In this document: positions 10,675 to 16,462 of the stretch, piece after piece
Layout of the letters: every line of letters begins with the position of its first letter
Numbering within the stretch: position 1 is the stretch's first letter
Origin: a virus
Taxonomy: Duplodnaviria; Caudoviricetes
Length of the DNA stretch: 57,384 nucleotides
Virus record (IMG/VR): IMGVR_UViG_3300049596_000539
Span: 1-57,384 of that record
Direction: 5' to 3' (one strand)
Made by a program: the position numbers and the translations under genes
The notes under the pieces: model-generated
The model's input: only the letters and a program-made list of their open reading frames with translations
Database searches by the model: none
What the model was told of the DNA's origin: nothing

Positions 10675-13080
10675 TCAACTACCCGACCCGTTCAAACTAT
10701 ACGTCGTCGTCCCATCCTTGCGGTCTGGGTTAATGCGCCCGGAGTTTACCAGGAAGCTGATCCGGTCGTCAAGCTCTCTCGGGCTTCGCTGAATCATTGC
10801 CCGGAAGCGGTGGAGGAGCTTCGTGGCCGTTACCGAACCACCTTGAGTGCGGATATAAGCCTCAATCTCGTTGGCAGAACGGCTGAACTCAGACTCAGAG
10901 GTTTCTTCAACCACCCGGAGGAAGTTGTAGAACCAATCCGTCCCGTACCAAATCGCAATGAGTGCATCGGTTTCTGTGAACTGCGTGCGTCCATCGTAGA
11001 GAGCCGTGAGAGCCGCACACTTGACCAGGGTTTCCGTCAGGCGGGTAAGAGGGCCTTGCAGAACGTCGTATCGCTCATGGGACCGGCACATAGCATCGTA
11101 AGCCAGAGCCGCCTTACTGAGACGCGCCCAGCCCTCATCCGTTGCCCCCACAACCGTTTCGCCCGGGAACATGTACGCGGTGTACAACAGATCCGATGCC
11201 AGATCAAACACCGCGGGGTGCGTGCGGGTGCGTGCGTCCACCTCAGTAGGACCCAGGTTAAAGCGCTCTTCATCCCCTTCATCCCGATCCGGTGCCCACG
11301 TCCAGTTCACACGGCTCATGAAGCCTGATTCGAACATCCCTGTTGTGACAAGGCTCAGCAACTTATCCGGAGTAGCCGACATGTTCAGCCCGAAAGAGGT
11401 TGTCGCTCTCTTCCCTCGGATTTCTTTGGGCAACCGGACCTTGTTGGAGGGCTCCACATCGCCGTCGTAGAACCTAGAGAAGTGGTGCTCAAGGGTTTTC
11501 ATCCACTGACTGTCGTGAAGGTCGCTGAAGAAAGACGCCGCTTCGTCGTGGTGGATCATGCTCGCCAGGCCATCCCGCATCAGCAACTCTTCGTGAATCG
11601 CCGTGGGAGATGAGGAAGCACCCACGTTGTAATAGCCCTGCTCGTCGTACGCCACGATGTCTAGAAGTGAGCGGAGAAACTTCATCGAACTGGTTTTTCC
11701 CGTCCCCGTCCCGCCCATCTCAATGAACCACAAATTAATCCCCAGCCCGTTATAGGCCAGGACAACCTTCGTCCCAAATGCCATACTCAAAGCCGTCCAC
11801 GCAGCGGGAACATCGTACGCCGGAACAGAGAAGCCCTTCTTAAGTGATGCCTCAAGGTATTCGTCAATGAACGTGCGAGTCCTCTTGACGACAGTTACCT
11901 CTTCGTCGGTGAGGAAGGCGTGTGTTCCGTGTTCCACCGTATCCGGAATCTGTACTTTTGTGGAACGGTCGGGAAGCGAGGGGTTCTCCCGGATCGGTTC
12001 TGGCTTTGACCTAGCAGATAGCACCCGTTCATGAACGAACTCCAGGCTCCACTCGCGGGAAATATCCCTGGTCCTAGGTGAATTCCAAAGAACAGAGGTT
12101 ACGAAAAGGTCATCATCTGTAGCGCGCTGAAGCTCCCGCAGTAAGGCACTAAACTCCGCCTTGCCCCCGGGCGCTCCGGTAAGGAGGTTGTCGGGGACGG
12201 ATGCAGGGACTTTGTTGATGTCATAGGCGGGGAGGCTTTTTCGTAGCTCAATAGAGTCACCGTATCGCTCAATGCCCGATGACAGCGCTTCATGAAACTT
12301 CCACTCCCACCGATCTTCCGGCGTGGTGTGCCCTCCGGGGTCACGGGAAAGCCAAGCATCCTCAAGTGCCGACAGCAGTTCCGGCACGCCTGTTGCGGCC
12401 TCAGCACCCAGCCGGATAGCTTCGTAGGTGGCCGACACCATTTCCTGATGCGACATATCGTTATTGACGCGCTCTATTGCCCGGCGGACAGCGACGTTCG
12501 GGGGACCAACTTCAAGTGTGTCGTACCACTCTTTCAGCCCACCTGAAAATGACTCGGAGGACTTTACGGTTTTTTCATCCAGCATCCACTCAGGCGCCGG
12601 TGAGAACTCTTCACGACTCTTCGGAACATCGCCGTTCCATAGTACCCAAGAGGACCCGGCGCGGATGTCTACGCCCTGCATCCCCCGGTAGTTAGTCGCG
12701 GGAGCCAGGTTCTTTCCCTCGGGTGCTGTGTAGATGAGGTGCGTTCCGCCAGAGGGGGTCTCATAGCTGAACGTGCTCGGGATCTCGTACCAGGATTTCT
12801 CCAGAGAATCCCAACCCGACTTGCCGTTCTTCTCGTCTACGTCTAGCCCAATAAGCCCGGCGGCTCCCAGGTACGCACCGACTCGTGCGGACTTGTTCTC
12901 AGTGAACCAATCCTCGACAAGACCGGGGTCAAGGGATGCTTCGAGATGGCCGTTCTTGTGGCCCCACGGCTCCTTAACGCCTTCTGACGTAATGCGCGCT
13001 TTAAACACGGGAATGCCCAGTGCTACAAGCCCCCGGGCGATATCAACCGAACGGTGTTCCATAGGTAGTTCGGTCTTCAA
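10675..13080 (-). CDS. Bifunctional primase-polymerase fused to a helicase/ATPase domain
   Basis: Prim-Pol motifs LDVD, TPSGGTH, GVDIRA; Walker A GGTGTGKT; HHDE Walker B; DUF3987-like C-terminus. Confidence 0.9.
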   Translation of the reverse strand: MKTELPMEHRSVDIARGLVALGIPVFKARITSEGVKEPWGHKNGHLEASLDPGLVEDWFTENKSARVGAYLGAAGLIGLDVDEKNGKSGWDSLEKSWYEIPSTFSYETPSGGTHLIYTAPEGKNLAPATNYRGMQGVDIRAGSSWVLWNGDVPKSREEFSPAPEWMLDEKTVKSSESFSGGLKEWYDTLEVGPPNVAVRRAIERVNNDMSHQEMVSATYEAIRLGAEAATGVPELLSALEDAWLSRDPGGHTTPEDRWEWKFHEALSSGIERYGDSIELRKSLPAYDINKVPASVPDNLLTGAPGGKAEFSALLRELQRATDDDLFVTSVLWNSPRTRDISREWSLEFVHERVLSARSKPEPIRENPSLPDRSTKVQIPDTVEHGTHAFLTDEEVTVVKRTRTFIDEYLEASLKKGFSVPAYDVPAAWTALSMAFGTKVVLAYNGLGINLWFIEMGGTGTGKTSSMKFLRSLLDIVAYDEQGYYNVGASSSPTAIHEELLMRDGLASMIHHDEAASFFSDLHDSQWMKTLEHHFSRFYDGDVEPSNKVRLPKEIRGKRATTSFGLNMSATPDKLLSLVTTGMFESGFMSRVNWTWAPDRDEGDEERFNLGPTEVDARTRTHPAVFDLASDLLYTAYMFPGETVVGATDEGWARLSKAALAYDAMCRSHERYDVLQGPLTRLTETLVKCAALTALYDGRTQFTETDALIAIWYGTDWFYNFLRVVEETSESEFSRSANEIEAYIRTQGGSVTATKLLHRFRAMIQRSPRELDDRISFLVNSGRINPDRKDGTTTYSLNGSGS

Positions 13081-13160
13081 GCTGTGCTCCCTCGTCCTCG
13101 AATATCAGTCTATCGCGTCTCCCCGTACGCCTCAATAAATTTCACATCAGTTTCGTAAAC

Positions 13161-13240
13161 GCGCAACGGGGAGGATTCGAACCTCAAACCAAATTAACCA
13201 GTGCCACTGGCGTTGCCACCCCTCGATCATTCCCGCTTGC
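13161..13240 (-). ncRNA. Degenerate tRNA-like element
   Basis: T arm GAGG-UUCGAAU-CCUC; bulged acceptor GCAA(G)CGG/CCGUUGC; CCAGU-GGC-ACUGG hairpin; no canonical D stem. Confidence 0.45.
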
Positions 13241-13275
13241 ATACGGCTACGGCTTGGAGATGAGGATTCTCCGCG

Positions 13276-13355
13276 TGGAAGTGGGGCGGATCGAACGCCC
13301 GTCTTGCAGAGTCCAACTTGTGGTTTTGTTCTGCAATCGACACCATTTCACTCCC
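13276..13355 (-). ncRNA. Mini-tmRNA: tRNA-like domain only, no tag ORF
   Basis: Acceptor GGGAGUG/CACUUCC-A with G3-U70; stemless D loop AAAUGGUGUCGA; helix 2a UUGCAGA/UCUGCAA closed by a 19-nt loop; GAC linker; T arm GGGCG-UUCGAUC-CGCCC. Confidence 0.85.
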
Positions 13356-13358
13356 GTA

Positions 13359-13404
13359 CGTCAGATAGTTTTACAACCCGAGGGCCTTCGTCCTCCACCT
13401 GACG
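13359..13404 (-). ncRNA. Hairpin resembling 16S rRNA helix 16
   Basis: 10-bp closing stem CGUCAGGUGG/CUAUCUGACG carrying GAAGGCCCUCGGGUUGUAAA. Confidence 0.65.
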
Positions 13405-13411
13405 GGTGTTT

Positions 13412-13478
13412 CTTCTACACGCGACTCGGCAAGGTCGCAATATTCACCGATGTAGAAGCCGGGTTATCGCCTCCCGGG
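13412..13478 (-). ncRNA. Structured 5' segment of the ncRNA cluster
   Basis: Stems CCGGG/CCCGG, CUUCUACA/UGUAGAAG and GCGAC/GUCGC directly after the promoter. Confidence 0.45.
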
Positions 13479-13483
13479 TCTTT

Positions 13484-13493
13484 CAGTCTATCA
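13484..13493 (-). promoter_or_regulatory. Extended -10 promoter heading the ncRNA cluster
   Basis: TGA-TAGACT overlapping the ssb stop codon; same motif recurs genome-wide. Confidence 0.65.
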
Positions 13494-13790
13494 GAAAGGC
13501 TCCGATCCGTCATCCTCTGCGGTCTCGAACCGGGCGGAGTTCAGCACGATATCTGCCACCGCACGAGGCTCTCCGTCATCGGGCGTCCAGATGCGAGCCT
13601 TCACACCCGTAAGCCCGGATACGTTGCCCACAGCGCCCTCAGAGAGCCCGTGAGGCGCATCAAACCACGCCGTGTACTTGGCTGATCCTTCGCTACCGTC
13701 CTGTTTCTGGAACGTCTCCACGAACTCCGCTCCCTTGCCTTCGTAAAAGACTCGGGACACCTTTGCGTTTCGAATATAGGTCAATGCCAT
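13491..13790 (-). CDS. Single-stranded DNA-binding protein
   Basis: OB-fold-sized, acidic tail ending EPF, AAGGAGG RBS, located in the recombination module. Confidence 0.75.
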   Translation of the reverse strand: MALTYIRNAKVSRVFYEGKGAEFVETFQKQDGSEGSAKYTAWFDAPHGLSEGAVGNVSGLTGVKARIWTPDDGEPRAVADIVLNSARFETAEDDGSEPF

Positions 13791-13791
13791 T

Positions 13792-13977
13792 TTACTTCTC
13801 CTCCTTGTTGATGAGTTCACTAAGAATATACGCTACTGCGTCATTGAAGTCAAGTTGCTGATACGCCTTCATTGCGAAAGGCCGGTTATCAACGGCATCT
13901 GACAGCACACGAAGGGCCGCAGCCCGCTTGGCTTTCTTGCTCTTGTAGGCGTCCATGTAACTTACCATCAGTCCCAC
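13792..13977 (-). CDS. Small hypothetical protein
   Basis: AAGGAGA RBS, packed operon. Confidence 0.45.
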   Translation of the reverse strand: MGLMVSYMDAYKSKKAKRAAALRVLSDAVDNRPFAMKAYQQLDFNDAVAYILSELINKEEK

Positions 13978-14095: not shown

Positions 14096-15016
14096 TCACG
14101 ATTCCTCCTTCTCAGCCATCTTCATAAGTCGCTGTCCCTTTCGAACCTGTAGCGCTCCTCGAAACATTTCCCAGCCCGCGTCAACCTTAGCAGAACTTAC
14201 CGGCTTCAGCGTGCAGAACGCATCTCGGCGTCCGGAAGGTAGCAGGTCCGTGGGCCGCAAGTGCAAGATCGCATACTCCGAGAATGCTGGAATAGGCTCC
14301 TCCCGCCAATACGACTTCCCGCCCTCCTTCGGCAATTCATACTCTACCGCACCTTCGGCCCCTTCCGCAACCTCTCGGATAATGGATTCTGCGGCTCCCA
14401 GGGCTGCAAGCTGTGCGTAGTGCTCCCCGCGCGTGTTCTTCGAGGTCTTAAGATCCACGAGAGTTGCAACGCCATCCACAATCCACAGGTGATCGAGAGT
14501 CCCAGCATACCCATCCCCGACAACCGTAACCTCTGTTTCCAGGACCGTTACTTCATGGCTGTTCCACCAATCCACGAACTCGGTAATCATCTCCTCTTGC
14601 TCAGGCCGGAAAATATCCTCCGGGAATAAATCATTGATGAAATCCGCTACCCAGTCGTGGGTCTTAGTCCCGAGGTTCGCCAGGTCATCGAGTACGCCTG
14701 CGGAATAGTCGTGCGGGTCGGTTTCCGGGTTATCGAAGTCGAACTTCCGCTTGTGATACCACCGCCCCATGTGGTAGGTCTGTTCAGCCGTCCGGTTCAG
14801 CACCGCATCAATGTTGGCTGCATAAAAAGCACAGGTATTATCGACAGCCCACTGAACCACCCCGCCCTTTTCAATGGCCCCCAAAACCGTTGTGACGCCT
14901 GGGACCAAGAGCGGCTTTCCGTCTTCTCCTAGCCGTGTCGGGATGCGGTAACCGCTACCAGAGTAACCAGAGGCGGCGACACGAAGTTTGGGAGCCCAGC
15001 GGTCGTGAGTATCCAC
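14096..15016 (-). CDS. PD-(D/E)XK exonuclease (Cas4/RecE-like)
   Basis: PGVTTVL, GTKTH, E, YAGTLD, LVDLKTS and QLAA motifs; adjacent to ERF. Confidence 0.85.
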   Translation of the reverse strand: MDTHDRWAPKLRVAASGYSGSGYRIPTRLGEDGKPLLVPGVTTVLGAIEKGGVVQWAVDNTCAFYAANIDAVLNRTAEQTYHMGRWYHKRKFDFDNPETDPHDYSAGVLDDLANLGTKTHDWVADFINDLFPEDIFRPEQEEMITEFVDWWNSHEVTVLETEVTVVGDGYAGTLDHLWIVDGVATLVDLKTSKNTRGEHYAQLAALGAAESIIREVAEGAEGAVEYELPKEGGKSYWREEPIPAFSEYAILHLRPTDLLPSGRRDAFCTLKPVSSAKVDAGWEMFRGALQVRKGQRLMKMAEKEES

Positions 15017-15663
15017 TAGACCTTCTTCAGTTCGGGGATCTTCTTCTCTGCGATAACCGTCTCCCGAGCCTTCAGAGCGCTAGAGCCCTCCTTCTTCAAC
15101 TCTTCGATCCGGTCATTCACTTCCTTCTTCCGAGTTGCGTCCCCATCAATCCACACCCGGATACGGTCATTAGCCTCCGCCAACTCTCCCCGACCCGACG
15201 CCGGTACGGACGCCTGGTTTGTCGGCTGTGGGGGCTTAGGAGCGGCGTTGGCAATGGCGCGTTCAGCAGCACTCGGCTGTGACGCTGCGTTTCCGTCATC
15301 GTCCCCATCCGCAACCACTCCGGTGAGAGACGCCAAAGCATACCGCCGGTAATAACTGATCGCTGAACCAACCTTTTGCGGGTTAGTCTCGGTGATCGGG
15401 AACTGCATGCTCCGAGAAGTGCCGGATTCGTGCATAAGGTGGGCGTCCAGAATCATTACGCCGTTTTCCACGAAGGCCCCGGTTGAGAATGCAAGTCCGT
15501 GTTCGCTCAGCTTCGGCAAAACAATCGTGCTCATGTTCGCCAGCGTTGCAAACTTGCTCTTGAAATGCGGATTAATCGCATCCATGTCTACCCGGGGGGC
15601 ATCCGCCTGAAACGCTGCCAGTGCCTCAGTCAGAGAGCCGTACTTTTTCGTTGCGTTAACCAT
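15016..15663 (-). CDS. ERF family ssDNA-annealing protein
   Basis: NPHFKSKFATL, L.H.SG and Q..GSAISYYRRYAL...DDDGN motifs; AAGGAG RBS before ATG at 15663. Confidence 0.9.
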   Translation of the reverse strand: MVNATKKYGSLTEALAAFQADAPRVDMDAINPHFKSKFATLANMSTIVLPKLSEHGLAFSTGAFVENGVMILDAHLMHESGTSRSMQFPITETNPQKVGSAISYYRRYALASLTGVVADGDDDGNAASQPSAAERAIANAAPKPPQPTNQASVPASGRGELAEANDRIRVWIDGDATRKKEVNDRIEELKKEGSSALKARETVIAEKKIPELKKV

Positions 15664-16183
15664 TCGTTTTCTCCTTCTTAGATTTGTGATAGAAAAGTCG
15701 TTTGCATTCCCTGCATCCTCTGTAGCCGTTAGGGTAGAGGTACAGATTATCACCTGAGTAGGGGTGACCATGCGCGCAATGTGTCTTATGAGATTGTCGG
15801 TTGTAATCCTGCCCATTTCTAAGGGCGTCCTGAATGTTATCCTGTTGCGTGCCCCAAAGCAAGTTCTGCACTGAATTATTGTCTTTGTCGTCATCCCAAT
15901 GCCGAACAACGGGATAACCATTTGGATTCGGGATAAATGCTCTGGCCACTAGGCGGTGAATCTCTCGGGACATCTGATTCCCGTCCTTGTGCAAACTCAC
16001 GCGGTAATGCCCTTTAGAGCCCTTGTTCGGCTTCAGAACTCGGCCCCTCCAAAGAACCTTTTGCCCCGACCGCCGCAAGACATAGTGATCGTAACTCCGA
16101 ACACGACCCAAATTGGAGACTTCATAGAGGCCCTCATAACCCACAACCGGTAGCCATTCCTCTAGATCATTCACGCTACCCAT
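15656..16183 (-). CDS. NUMOD4-HNH homing endonuclease
   Basis: EEWLPVVGYEGLYEVSNLGRVRS (NUMOD4); HRLVA.AF...H.D.DK.NN...NL.W; C-terminal KTHC..GH...C.EC. Confidence 0.92.
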   Translation of the reverse strand: MGSVNDLEEWLPVVGYEGLYEVSNLGRVRSYDHYVLRRSGQKVLWRGRVLKPNKGSKGHYRVSLHKDGNQMSREIHRLVARAFIPNPNGYPVVRHWDDDKDNNSVQNLLWGTQQDNIQDALRNGQDYNRQSHKTHCAHGHPYSGDNLYLYPNGYRGCRECKRLFYHKSKKEKTNG

Positions 16184-16250
16184 CAAGCGTTACCGCCGGA
16201 AGGTCTGCCTGAAAGGCGGCGAGTGCCTTGGTGAGTGCGTTTTCTGTCAT
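16176..16250 (-). pseudogene. Orphaned 5' fragment of the ERF gene (24 aa)
   Basis: MTENALTKALAAFQADLPAVTLDG* aligns with the ERF N-terminus LTEALAAFQADAPRVDMD; GGGAG RBS. Confidence 0.8.
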
Positions 16251-16462
16251 TATTTCTCTCCCTGTGAGTCGATCCAACGCTGCAAAAGCGTGTCTAGTTC
16301 TTCGTTGGCAAGTTTGTATACGTCGTCTAGGAAATCTGCGTTCCCTTCAATCTCCGCGCTTACCTCGCTGTGAGATATCCCCTCAGAGAAAAAGTCTAGC
16401 ACGACAATACGAACCGCCTCTGCTAGGGCTTCGTCATAAATTTCCTCTGCCGTCTTAGTCAT
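16250..16462 (-). CDS. Hypothetical acidic protein
   Basis: Packed operon. Confidence 0.55.
   Translation of the reverse strand: MTKTAEEIYDEALAEAVRIVVLDFFSEGISHSEVSAEIEGNADFLDDVYKLANEELDTLLQRWIDSQGEK

What the first reader, a model, noticed from the sequence alone, without database searches (positions are those of the whole stretch)
13161..13493. Promoter-headed cluster of translation-machinery mimic RNAs: candidate new system
Seen: about 330 bp between ssb and primase with no credible - strand ORF, its own TGA-TAGACT promoter, and in transcript order a multi-stem leader, a 16S helix-16-like hairpin, a tag-less tmRNA domain and a degenerate tRNA-like element. Known: tRNA-like folds are cut out by RNase P and 3' nucleases, which would release the parts as separate RNAs. 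Inference: a polycistronic RNA decoy cassette that imitates rRNA, tmRNA and tRNA. It could titrate host factors (SmpB, uS4, AlaRS, EF-Tu) or absorb defence or toxin nucleases that attack these RNAs. I know of no described system with this combination but could not search.
Basis: partly seen in the sequence, partly recalled or inferred. Interest (0 to 1): 0.9.

Follow-up and report, generated by a model that had tools for sequence, protein, structure and literature searches.

The report
Phage tag-less mini-tmRNA with structured leader
The gap between the phage's ssb-like and primase genes encodes an 80-base RNA that copies only the tRNA-like end of bacterial tmRNA, a rarely reported phage RNA type that probably interferes with or replaces the host's rescue of stalled ribosomes.

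Summary
The core observation holds, but the "new three-mimic system" reading does not.

**The tmRNA-like element is real.** Window 13355..13276 (- strand) is a complete tmRNA tRNA-like domain (TLD) with no tag-coding part.
- It has a 7-bp acceptor stem starting GGG with G3·U70, discriminator A, an unpaired D-region, a closed 7-bp helix and a canonical T arm.
- A covariance model built from 29 other viral sequences, without the window, scores it 89.2 bits (E 4.7e-25).
- At least 51 IMG/VR loci carry the same ~80-nt RNA, with strong covariation.
- In print I found only one phage case, mycobacteriophage DS6A ("TLD only").

**The leader is real and unmatched.** It matches no Rfam family. It is a hairpin plus an H-type pseudoknot, shared with five Microbacterium phages, with 9 pairs changed on both sides.

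**The other parts are weaker.**
- The "16S helix-16" hairpin is a leader hairpin typical of the family. Its likeness to 16S is not significant (E=9).
- The "degenerate tRNA" is sub-threshold.
- The promoter is only a consensus match.

Transcription, alanine charging and SmpB binding are untested. I file it as a new member of a known but little-described kind.

The parts
13491..13820 (-). Upstream gene: SSB-like protein. The likely true start is the ATG at 13790.
   Evidence: 60% identity to WaterT gp72, annotated ssDNA binding protein. No Pfam family.
13485..13493 (-). TGATAGACT: extended -10-like match. It overlaps the stop codon of the SSB-like ORF. Candidate promoter for the RNA cassette, unproven.
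   Evidence: Read. The pattern TGNTANNNT is not enriched (52 found, 52.7 expected). GATAGACT occurs 3 times in the window, which 11 of 100 shuffles reach. The same 8-mer lies before the primase gene. The sigma-70 scan finds no site here.
13406..13480 (-). Conserved structured 5' leader. Hairpin H1: 13473-13477 with 13459-13463, 9-nt loop. P1: 13451-13458 with 13412-13419. P1b: 13447-13450 with 13426-13429. Pseudoknot: 13434-13438 with 13421-13425.
   Evidence: Conserved with 5 Microbacterium phages (A1). Pairing in the window: P1 8/8, P1b 4/4, PK 5/5. In relatives: 7/7 (6/7 in LeeroyJenkins), 4/4, 4/5. Nine pairs differ on both sides between the two clades. No Rfam family at E<=10 beyond a 12.9-bit tmRNA_permuted match.
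13359..13404 (-). Leader hairpin ending 3 nt before the TLD.
   Evidence: Minimum free energy -18.3 kcal/mol, 4th percentile of windows in the same genome. An equivalent hairpin lies upstream in 13 of 30 family loci. Relatives keep a hairpin with other stem sequences. The 16S likeness is 29 nt, 86%, E=9.
13276..13355 (-). TLD-only (tag-less) mini-tmRNA, 80 nt. Acceptor 13349-13355 with 13277-13283 (G3·U70). Discriminator A at 13276. Central helix closed by a 21-nt loop holding a 3-bp inner hairpin. T arm 13284-13300. CCA is not encoded.
   Evidence: R1 89.2 bits, E 4.7e-25, model positions 1-80 of 80. Same architecture as the DS6A TLD. Fold z=-3.17.
13256..13272 (-). Small 5-bp hairpin just after the TLD 3' end.
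   Evidence: Predicted in the fold of the whole interval. Not tested further.
13162..13240 (-). Element 2: a canonical-looking T arm closed by an imperfect acceptor-like stem. Probably a decayed tRNA-shaped gene, possibly a decayed TLD duplicate.
   Evidence: R1 13.7 bits, E 0.0012 in a 601-nt search with filters off, with a partial match to the TLD D-region. Rfam tRNA-Sec 15 bits, E 1.2. ARAGORN only at the 80% threshold. Not present in relatives.
13107..13153 (-). Conserved block upstream of the primase gene, including GATAGACT at 13107-13114. Likely the primase promoter/leader.
   Evidence: Conserved in all 5 Microbacterium phages. A related motif lies before the primase of L007.
10675..13080 (-). 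Downstream gene: DNA primase/polymerase with a DUF3987 helicase-like domain.
   Evidence: Pfam Prim-Pol 1.7e-17 and DUF3987 6.4e-09. 44.6-44.8% identity to the primases of 5 Microbacterium phages.

Best explanation
The ssb-primase gap is a small-RNA slot on the - strand. Its functional core is an 80-nt RNA (13355..13276) that reproduces only the tRNA-like domain of tmRNA. It is a member of a recurrent phage family of tag-less mini-tmRNAs, of which mycobacteriophage DS6A is the one published case.

**Inferred mechanism.**
1. The RNA is transcribed with the early/replication genes, either from the TGATAGACT site or by read-through.
2. RNase P trims it at G1, releasing the structured leader.
3. 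It is trimmed at A73 and receives CCA from the host enzyme.
4. Host AlaRS charges it with alanine through G3·U70 and A73.
5. It is then bound by host SmpB and EF-Tu.
6. Because it has no resume codon or tag frame, it competes with host tmRNA at SmpB and at stalled ribosomes. Ribosome rescue is blocked or happens without the degradation tag.

**The other parts.**
- The upstream 75-nt pseudoknotted module and the leader hairpin are a conserved, lineage-specific leader of unknown role.
- Element 2 is most likely a decayed tRNA-shaped gene.

**Shown:** sequence, fold, family membership, covariation, synteny.
**Inferred:** transcription, processing, charging, SmpB binding and the effect on trans-translation.
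For: **Membership.**
- R1 was built from 29 distinct IMG/VR sequences without the window. It scores the window 89.2 bits, E 4.7e-25, full length. Its own training members score 67-97 bits.

**Family is real.**
- 35 of 43 pattern hits had a 7/7 acceptor stem, a 5/5 T stem and discriminator A.
- On A3, 96.3% of cells pair, 17 of 22 pairs change on both sides, and the covariation score is 0.662 against 0.196 in shuffles (0 of 500 reach it). Sliding the partners drops pairing to 34-49%.
- U70 is invariant in 29 of 29, although C70 would also have passed my selection.
- In all, 51 of 162 pattern-fetched IMG/VR loci match R1 at E<=1e-8. Locus GC in the first 29 ranges 0.29-0.69.

**Precedent.**
- The DS6A TLD (JN698994 28478-28560) has the same layout.
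- PMC11915505 says it inhibits endogenous tmRNA in E. coli.

**tRNA-type processing context.**
- 12 of 29 loci hold tRNA genes, and 7 of those abut the TLD within 5 nt.
- Several members have a TTGACA-type promoter followed by a hairpin directly upstream.

**Synteny.**
- Four Microbacterium phages carry a 99-nt TLD-like RNA (GGG start, G3·U70, A73; fold z=-3.5 to -3.7) behind the same leader.

**Dependence on the host, and not an att site.**
- The phage has no SmpB and no tyrosine integrase.
Against: - There is no expression evidence.
- ARAGORN at default, Rfam at gathering scores and RF00023 at E<=10 do not call the window's element.
- The promoter is only a non-specific consensus match and is not conserved in relatives.
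- CCA is not encoded.
- The inhibition experiment is known to me only through two citing passages. The primary paper (Mao et al. 2009) is not in the library.
[quoted passage not shown] The strict conservation of the alanine identity elements argues that charging matters. That fits tag-free rescue at least as well as pure titration.
- The relatives' TLD-like RNAs score only 23.5-23.7 bits, a range that ordinary tRNAs also reach with R1.
- GGG start and full acceptor pairing were my own selection criteria for A3.
- One close relative (L007) lacks both the leader and the TLD.
Confidence: 0.6

Rival explanations
1. Tag-free rescue helper. The same Ala-charged mini-tmRNA enters stalled ribosomes with SmpB and accepts the nascent chain. 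It frees ribosomes without adding a degradation tag. The phage keeps translation capacity, and truncated phage proteins escape proteolysis, rather than trans-translation being poisoned.
For: G3·U70 and A73 are invariant in 29 of 29 and 35 of 35 members, although C70 would also pair. This implies selection for alanylation and therefore for ribosome entry. Members sit in tRNA arrays, a translation-support context. CDS-less tmRNAs in plastids are noted in PMC11915505.
Against: No release mechanism after transpeptidation is evident in the RNA. The only experiment known to me reports inhibition of tmRNA. Nothing here tests it.
Confidence: 0.25
2. One reading: a promoter-headed polycistronic decoy cassette. 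Its separate parts imitate 16S helix 16, tmRNA and tRNA, to soak up uS4, SmpB, AlaRS, EF-Tu or defence nucleases.
For: The tmRNA-like part is real. The hairpin shares 29 nt at 86% with 16S around helix 16. Element 2 has a T arm. A decoy role for phage tRNA-shaped RNAs against nucleases is conceivable.
Against: The 16S match has E=9, and no SSU rRNA hit appeared at E<=10. Relatives and 12 other family members have a hairpin there with unrelated sequences. Element 2 is sub-threshold and not conserved. The TLD-only RNA occurs alone in most other phages, so the combination is not a unit.
Confidence: 0.07
3. Non-functional debris. The slot is a graveyard of decaying tRNA/tmRNA genes acquired from hosts or other phages, with no current function.
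For: Element 2 looks decayed. The slot's content varies among relatives, with different tRNA-Leu genes and the TLD present or absent.
Against: The TLD is structurally perfect and scores in the middle of the range of its family. The family shows compensatory changes in all four helices. The leader keeps its pseudoknot through 9 double changes. A lake-water variant contig carries 4 SNPs in 739 nt, none in the TLD.
Confidence: 0.05
4. DNA-level element. The conserved stems mark a replication origin, a single-strand initiation site for the adjacent Prim-Pol, or an attP core derived from host ssrA.
For: It lies directly upstream of the primase/polymerase gene. A distant primase locus (L009) also has a T-arm-like motif upstream.
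Against: There is no integrase in the genome. An attP would carry only the 3' part of ssrA, whereas both acceptor strands are present in RNA order. In other phages the same RNA sits in tRNA arrays, unrelated to primases. G·U pairs (G3·U70 invariant) work only on the - strand RNA.
Confidence: 0.03

Closest known systems
Mycobacteriophage DS6A 'TLD only' / CDS-less tmRNA (tmRNA Website entry; Hudson, Lau & Williams 2014; 2025 tmRNA database paper)
   Same: Same layout element by element: GGG acceptor with G3·U70, discriminator A, unpaired D-region with the shared AAUGGUG motif, a central helix (6 bp in DS6A, 7 bp in the window) closed by a ~20-nt loop, canonical T arm, no tag frame, CCA not encoded.
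   Different: The host lineage differs: a Microbacterium-phage-like genome from lake water, not a Mycobacterium phage. The genome position differs. A pseudoknotted leader precedes the TLD here and is absent in DS6A. RF00023 gives DS6A 43.2 bits and the window nothing at E<=10.
Canonical one-piece tmRNA (Rfam RF00023)
   Same: The tRNA-like domain: acceptor with alanine identity elements, D-region, T arm and the start of helix P2.
   Different: It lacks the whole mRNA-like domain: no resume codon, no tag ORF, no pseudoknots inside P2. It is 80 nt, whereas the RF00023 model has 374 positions. It does not reach the Rfam threshold.
Two-piece (permuted) tmRNA, as in phage Melnitz and Alphaproteobacteria (Rfam RF04321, RF01850)
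   Same: Sub-threshold matches to these models (12.9 and 14.1 bits). ARAGORN at an 80% threshold proposes a permuted gene. There is a precedent for a structured regulatory RNA (a glutamine riboswitch) attached to a phage tmRNA gene (PMC9004378 passages).
   Different: The two acceptor strands are in standard order and close a complete domain. The proposed tag runs into the primase start and ARAGORN itself reports 'Tag not identified'. The gathering scores are 47 and 84 bits.
Phage tRNA gene clusters
   Same: The slot holds tRNA-Leu(CAA) in all 6 relatives. Family members abut tRNAs and presumably share RNase P/CCA processing.
   Different: There is no anticodon arm, and ARAGORN and RF00005 do not call it. 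The identity elements are those of tmRNA/tRNA-Ala only.

Membership tests
TLD-only (CDS-less) phage mini-tmRNA, DS6A type | 7-bp acceptor stem beginning GGG with a G3·U70 wobble and discriminator A73 (alanine identity) | tested here: met
   Window 13349-13355 pairs 7/7 with 13277-13283. G3·U70 and A at 13276 are present. The same holds in 35 of 35 family loci.
TLD-only (CDS-less) phage mini-tmRNA, DS6A type | Unpaired D-region, T arm with a 5-bp stem and 7-nt UUCGAUY loop, and a central helix closed by a short loop instead of an mRNA-like domain | tested here: met
   Full-length alignment to R1 with no non-standard pair flagged. The minimum-energy fold equals the consensus.
TLD-only (CDS-less) phage mini-tmRNA, DS6A type | Scores as a member with a model that did not include it | tested here: met
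   89.2 bits, E 4.7e-25. Training members score 67.2-96.6 bits.
TLD-only (CDS-less) phage mini-tmRNA, DS6A type | Alanylation, SmpB binding, inhibition of host trans-translation | not testable with these tools
   Known only from passages citing Mao et al. 2009.
Canonical tmRNA (RF00023) | mRNA-like domain with a resume codon and a tag reading frame | tested here: not met
   Only 21 nt lie between the two strands of the central helix. ARAGORN at default finds no tmRNA.
Canonical tmRNA (RF00023) | Reaches the Rfam gathering score (47 bits) | tested here: not met
   No RF00023 match at E<=10 in the window. Other family members reach 65.4 (L045), 53.6 (L024) and 43.2 (DS6A) bits.
Two-piece / permuted tmRNA | T arm and 3' acceptor strand lie upstream of the 5' acceptor strand, with a coding piece bearing a plausible tag | tested here: not met
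   RF04321 12.9 bits against 47, and RF01850 14.1 against 84. ARAGORN calls it only at the 80% threshold, with 'Tag not identified' and a tag overlapping the primase start.
tRNA (RF00005), for element 2 at 13162-13240 | Cloverleaf with an anticodon arm, called by a tRNA model | tested here: not met
   No RF00005 hit at E<=10. The best hit is tRNA-Sec, 15 bits, E 1.2. ARAGORN calls it only at 80%.
16S rRNA helix 16 mimic | Significant, conserved similarity to the 16S helix-16 region | tested here: not met
   29 nt, 86%, E=9. No SSU rRNA hit at E<=10. The sequence is not conserved in relatives.
Known riboswitch or ribozyme classes (for the pseudoknotted leader) | Match to any Rfam model | tested here: not met
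   cmscan of 12900-13700 at E<=10 lists only 3 weak matches, none a riboswitch or ribozyme.

The most novel reading that the evidence does not exclude
Tag-less mini-tmRNAs are not a DS6A oddity. They form a conserved, alanine-identity-bearing RNA family spread through phages of very different hosts: at least 51 IMG/VR contigs, with locus GC of 0.29-0.69 among the first 29. They act as a dedicated phage tool to take over or silence ribosome rescue. In this lineage the RNA is additionally coupled to a previously undescribed pseudoknotted leader. That leader could be a sensor or processing/antitermination element controlling when the mini-tmRNA is made. A glutamine riboswitch on another phage's tmRNA gene is a precedent.
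Probability: 0.35. Interest if true: 0.7.

Novelty: new member of a known kind. Interest (0 to 1): 0.5.

Why it matters
Trans-translation is essential or near-essential in many bacteria and is a drug target. A natural, compact, phage-evolved RNA that engages SmpB, AlaRS and EF-Tu without tagging would be useful in two ways:
- It would be a ready-made probe or inhibitor scaffold.
- It would show that phages manipulate ribosome rescue.

The literature I could search treats this form as a single curiosity (DS6A). Here it recurs in dozens of uncultivated phages with clear covariation, and standard annotators miss it. So it is probably under-counted in phage genomes.

The conserved pseudoknotted leader is a separate, testable new RNA motif. 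Cultured relatives (WaterT, Cassita, BarnCat, LeeroyJenkins, Lifes on Microbacterium paraoxydans) make it tractable.

Tried and rejected
**Close relatives of the window**
- blastn of the interval against 50,697 phage records found no match.
- The primase peptide scan of IMG/VR with the single protein found none.
- Two DNA patterns for the leader in IMG/VR found none.
- The primase-alignment scans gave only L007 and distant L008 in IMG/VR, and distant L009 in metagenomes.

**Whole-interval folding**
- The z-scores are insignificant on both strands: -0.69 and -0.18. The signal lies in the parts, not the whole.

**Tag peptide in the leader**
- Two frames are open in both clades, but the products differ. 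The variation follows stems, not codons. Rejected.

**Permuted tmRNA reading**
- Rejected.

**Leader loop motif in other TLD loci**
- RGNGATAACC gave 17 hits against about 24 expected. The L045 resemblance is therefore taken as chance.

**Covariance model of the leader**
- Not built. MAFFT misaligns the 3' half relative to the structure, and I did not hand-edit alignments. Pairing was counted by motif-anchored script instead. The first version of that script had a register error for the relatives and was corrected.

**BLAST for named phages with the family**
- Searches with the window TLD and with the L017 TLD gave only T-arm-sized hits.

**A mis-specified pattern**
- One search used wrong spacer lengths and wasted one viral scan. 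It was corrected.

**Sequencing runs**
- No RNA holder is listed.
- Laid DNA contigs gave one 1,056-nt variant contig with 4 differences, none in the TLD, so there is no covariation information.
- Parts without cover say nothing.

**Tools and sources I could not use**
- Supplements were closed. The supplementary tables or website of the tmRNA database papers may list further viral TLD-only entries that I could not see.
- The primary report of the DS6A experiment (Mao et al. 2009) is not in the library.

**A correction to my notes**
- Note 4 says tRNAs are adjacent in 15 of 29 loci. Recounting one search gives 12 of 29 with tRNA genes, 7 of them abutting the TLD.
Full report
**Setting**

The window is a complete 57,384-bp viral genome with direct terminal repeats and about 55% GC. 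It recurs in lake-water DNA metagenomes of several studies.

The interval in question lies on the - strand.
- Upstream is a 109-aa ORF (13491..13820). It is 60% identical to the annotated ssDNA-binding protein gp72 of Microbacterium phage WaterT, though it matches no Pfam family.
- Downstream is an 801-aa Prim-Pol/DUF3987 protein (10675..13080).
- The gap is 13081..13490, about 410 nt. Its longest - strand ORF is 39 aa.

The nearest named relatives are five Microbacterium paraoxydans phages: Cassita, BarnCat, WaterT, Lifes and LeeroyJenkins. Their primases are 44.6-44.8% identical to the window's. One IMG/VR contig, L007, is 46% identical.

In all six relatives the same ssb-to-primase slot holds a tRNA-Leu(CAA) gene. 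The slot is therefore a small-RNA gene site across the lineage.

**What the standard tools say**

- ARAGORN at default settings finds no tRNA or tmRNA anywhere in the window.
- Rfam at gathering thresholds finds nothing.
- With permissive thresholds only weak partial hits appear: beta_tmRNA 14.1 bits and tmRNA_permuted 12.9 bits.
- RF00023 gives no hit at E<=10.
- Taken alone, these results would have dismissed the finding.

**The tag-less tmRNA domain is real**

Read directly, 13355..13276 (-) has every feature of a tmRNA tRNA-like domain:
- a 7-bp acceptor stem beginning GGG, whose third pair is G·U;
- an unpaired D-region;
- a 7-bp helix closed by a 21-nt loop that contains a 3-bp inner hairpin;
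- a 5-bp T stem with a 7-nt T loop;
- discriminator A.

CCA is not encoded.

Hudson, Lau and Williams (PMC4131195, passages read) list mycobacteriophage DS6A as "TLD only". I located that element at JN698994 28478-28560 (RF00023 43.2 bits, below the 47-bit cut-off). It has the same layout, element by element, as the window's RNA.

**It belongs to a family**

A pattern drawn from the two sequences hit 43 IMG/VR loci.
- 35 of the 43 have a perfect 7-bp acceptor stem starting GGG, a perfect 5-bp T stem and discriminator A. They are 77-81 nt long and give 29 distinct sequences.
- The other 8 of the 43 are clearly unrelated.
- CCA is encoded in 1 of the 35.

On the alignment of the 29 distinct sequences, which excludes the window (A3), the structure is strongly supported:
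- 96.3% of cells form standard pairs.
- 17 of 22 pairs show changes on both sides.
- The covariation score is 0.662 against 0.196 in shuffles (0 of 500 reach it).
- Sliding the 3' partners drops pairing to 34-49%.

One caveat applies. GGG start and full acceptor pairing were my own selection criteria. The central helix, the inner hairpin and the T stem were not. Nor was U rather than C at position 70, which is invariant in 29 of 29.

The covariance model R1, built from A3, scores the window's element 89.2 bits, E 4.7e-25, over all 80 model positions. That sits inside the 67-97-bit range of the training members.

R1 found 7 more members at E<=1e-8 among 79 of those loci and 8 more among the remaining 37. 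Together with 36 of the first 46 loci, that makes 51 of 162 fetched IMG/VR loci. One of them is DS6A itself. Locus GC among the first 29 ranges from 0.29 to 0.69.

Rfam's tmRNA model recognises some members and not others:
- L045: 65.4 bits.
- L024: 53.6 bits.
- DS6A: 43.2 bits.
- L017: nothing at E<=0.1.

This explains why annotation pipelines miss the family.

**Context of the family**

- 12 of 29 loci contain tRNA genes, and in 7 of those a tRNA abuts the TLD within 5 nt on the same strand. This argues for co-transcription and tRNA-type end processing.
- Several members show a TTGACA-type promoter, then a strong hairpin, then the TLD.
- An unusually stable hairpin (at or below the 5th percentile of same-locus windows) lies in the 50 nt upstream in 13 of 30 loci, including the window. 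About 1.5 would be expected by chance. Most of the others are preceded by a tRNA instead.

**The "16S helix-16-like" hairpin**

The window's hairpin (13359-13404) ends 3 nt before the TLD. It is one of these leader hairpins.
- Its likeness to 16S is 29 nt at 86%, E=9.
- No SSU rRNA hit appears at E<=10.
- The Microbacterium phages have a hairpin at the same place with unrelated stems.

I read the resemblance as chance.

**The multi-stem leader**

13480..13406 is conserved between the window and the five Microbacterium phages (A1). It is absent from L007 and from the other TLD loci.

A motif-anchored count gives these results:

| Element | Window | Relatives |
|---|---|---|
| P1 | 8 of 8 pairs | 7 of 7 (6 of 7 in LeeroyJenkins) |
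| P1b | 4 of 4 | 4 of 4 |
| Loop-to-bulge pairing | 5 of 5 | 4 of 5 |

The loop-to-bulge pairing makes the fold an H-type pseudoknot. Between the two clades, 9 of these pairs differ on both sides while pairing is kept: 3 in P1, 2 in P1b and 4 in the pseudoknot. A GC-rich hairpin with a conserved 9-10-nt loop precedes them.

Only two independent lineages are available, so this is good but not statistical evidence. No Rfam family matches. The role of the leader is unknown. Possibilities are a processing or stability element, an antitermination element, a sensor, or a separate stable RNA released by RNase P.

**Relatives' TLD-like RNA**

Behind the same leader and hairpin, WaterT, Cassita, BarnCat and LeeroyJenkins carry a 99-nt RNA with a GGG start, G3·U70, discriminator A, a canonical T arm and a long central helix. 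Its fold z-score is -3.5 to -3.7.

R1 gives it only 23.5-23.7 bits, and ordinary tRNAs reach similar scores. I therefore call it a probable divergent homologue, on the strength of synteny and identity elements.

Lifes has tRNA-Leu directly after the hairpin, plus a 66-nt tRNA-shaped element without G3·U70.

**Element 2**

13162-13240 has a canonical-looking T arm and an imperfect closing stem. All scores are sub-threshold:
- tRNA-Sec 15 bits, E 1.2.
- R1 13.7 bits, E 0.0012 in a 601-nt search with filters off, with a partial match to the TLD D-region.
- ARAGORN only at the 80% threshold.

It is not conserved in relatives. It is most likely a decayed tRNA-shaped gene, possibly a TLD duplicate.

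**Promoter**

- TGATAGACT (13493-13485) fits TGnTAnnnT, and the conserved leader starts 5-6 nt downstream of it.
- That pattern is at chance frequency in the window: 52 found, 52.7 expected.
- The sigma-70 scan finds only a site upstream of the SSB-like gene, at 13853-13825.
- The site is not conserved in relatives.
- The same 8-mer lies in a block before the primase gene that is conserved in all relatives. So it may be a genuine phage promoter type.
- No RNA data exist.

**Mechanism**

Shown: sequence, fold, membership, covariation, synteny, and the absence of a phage SmpB or tyrosine integrase.

Inferred from established knowledge of tmRNA and tRNA-Ala (recalled, not tested):
1. RNase P cuts at G1.
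2. CCA is added to the 3' end.
3. AlaRS charges the RNA with alanine through G3·U70 and A73.
4. SmpB and EF-Tu bind it.

With no resume codon, the RNA can only compete with host tmRNA. Two citing passages report that a DS6A-like molecule inhibits endogenous tmRNA in E. coli, perhaps by titrating SmpB.

The strict conservation of the alanine identity elements suggests that charging matters. That keeps tag-free rescue alive as a rival.

**Literature**

Six searches found only DS6A as a phage TLD-only form, together with the passages read. Supplements and the primary 2009 paper could not be seen.

**Verdict**

- The "three-mimic new system" interpretation is not supported.
- The element is a new member of a known, barely described kind.
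- Two side results are worth follow-up: the family is much larger than reported, and a new pseudoknotted leader motif accompanies it in this lineage.

Noticed in passing
window 15016-16277 (-): A NUMOD4/HNH_3 homing-endonuclease ORF (15656..16186) sits at the head of the ERF recombinase gene. A 33-aa ORF upstream of it (16176..16277) repeats 13 of 19 residues of ERF residues 96-114. This suggests an endonuclease insertion that duplicated or split the ERF 5' end.
   Followed up: partly
window + strand: 916, 2555, 30867, 31711, 37320, 38963, 47242, 51730: The 9-mer TGATAAACT occurs 8 times, all on the + strand. It may be a phage-specific extended -10 promoter motif for + strand genes.
   Followed up: no
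L009 1925-2015 (+): A distant primase relative from a metagenome contig also has a T-arm-like motif, with a possible 5-bp closing stem, just upstream of its primase gene. ARAGORN calls nothing there.
   Followed up: no
L045 10470-10656 (-): This family member is the only one with encoded CCA. It reaches 65.4 bits on RF00023 and is followed by a 37.1-bit tmRNA_permuted match. ARAGORN calls a tmRNA* with a tag there. It may be a two-piece or otherwise different form.
   Followed up: partly
L018 7425-7495 (+): Directly after this TLD-only RNA come two more T-arm-like motifs that ARAGORN does not call. They may be further non-canonical tRNA-shaped RNAs.
   Followed up: no
window 13301-13350, run X15: A 232-nt lake-water contig matches only the TLD core, with 5 differences in 50 nt and unrelated flanks. 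It is probably another phage in the same habitat carrying a family member.
   Followed up: no
L002 2709-2894 and the other Microbacterium phage records: WaterT gp69 is annotated as a hypothetical protein on the strand opposite to, and overlapping, tRNA-Leu. The conserved leader and TLD-like RNA are unannotated in all five records.
   Followed up: no
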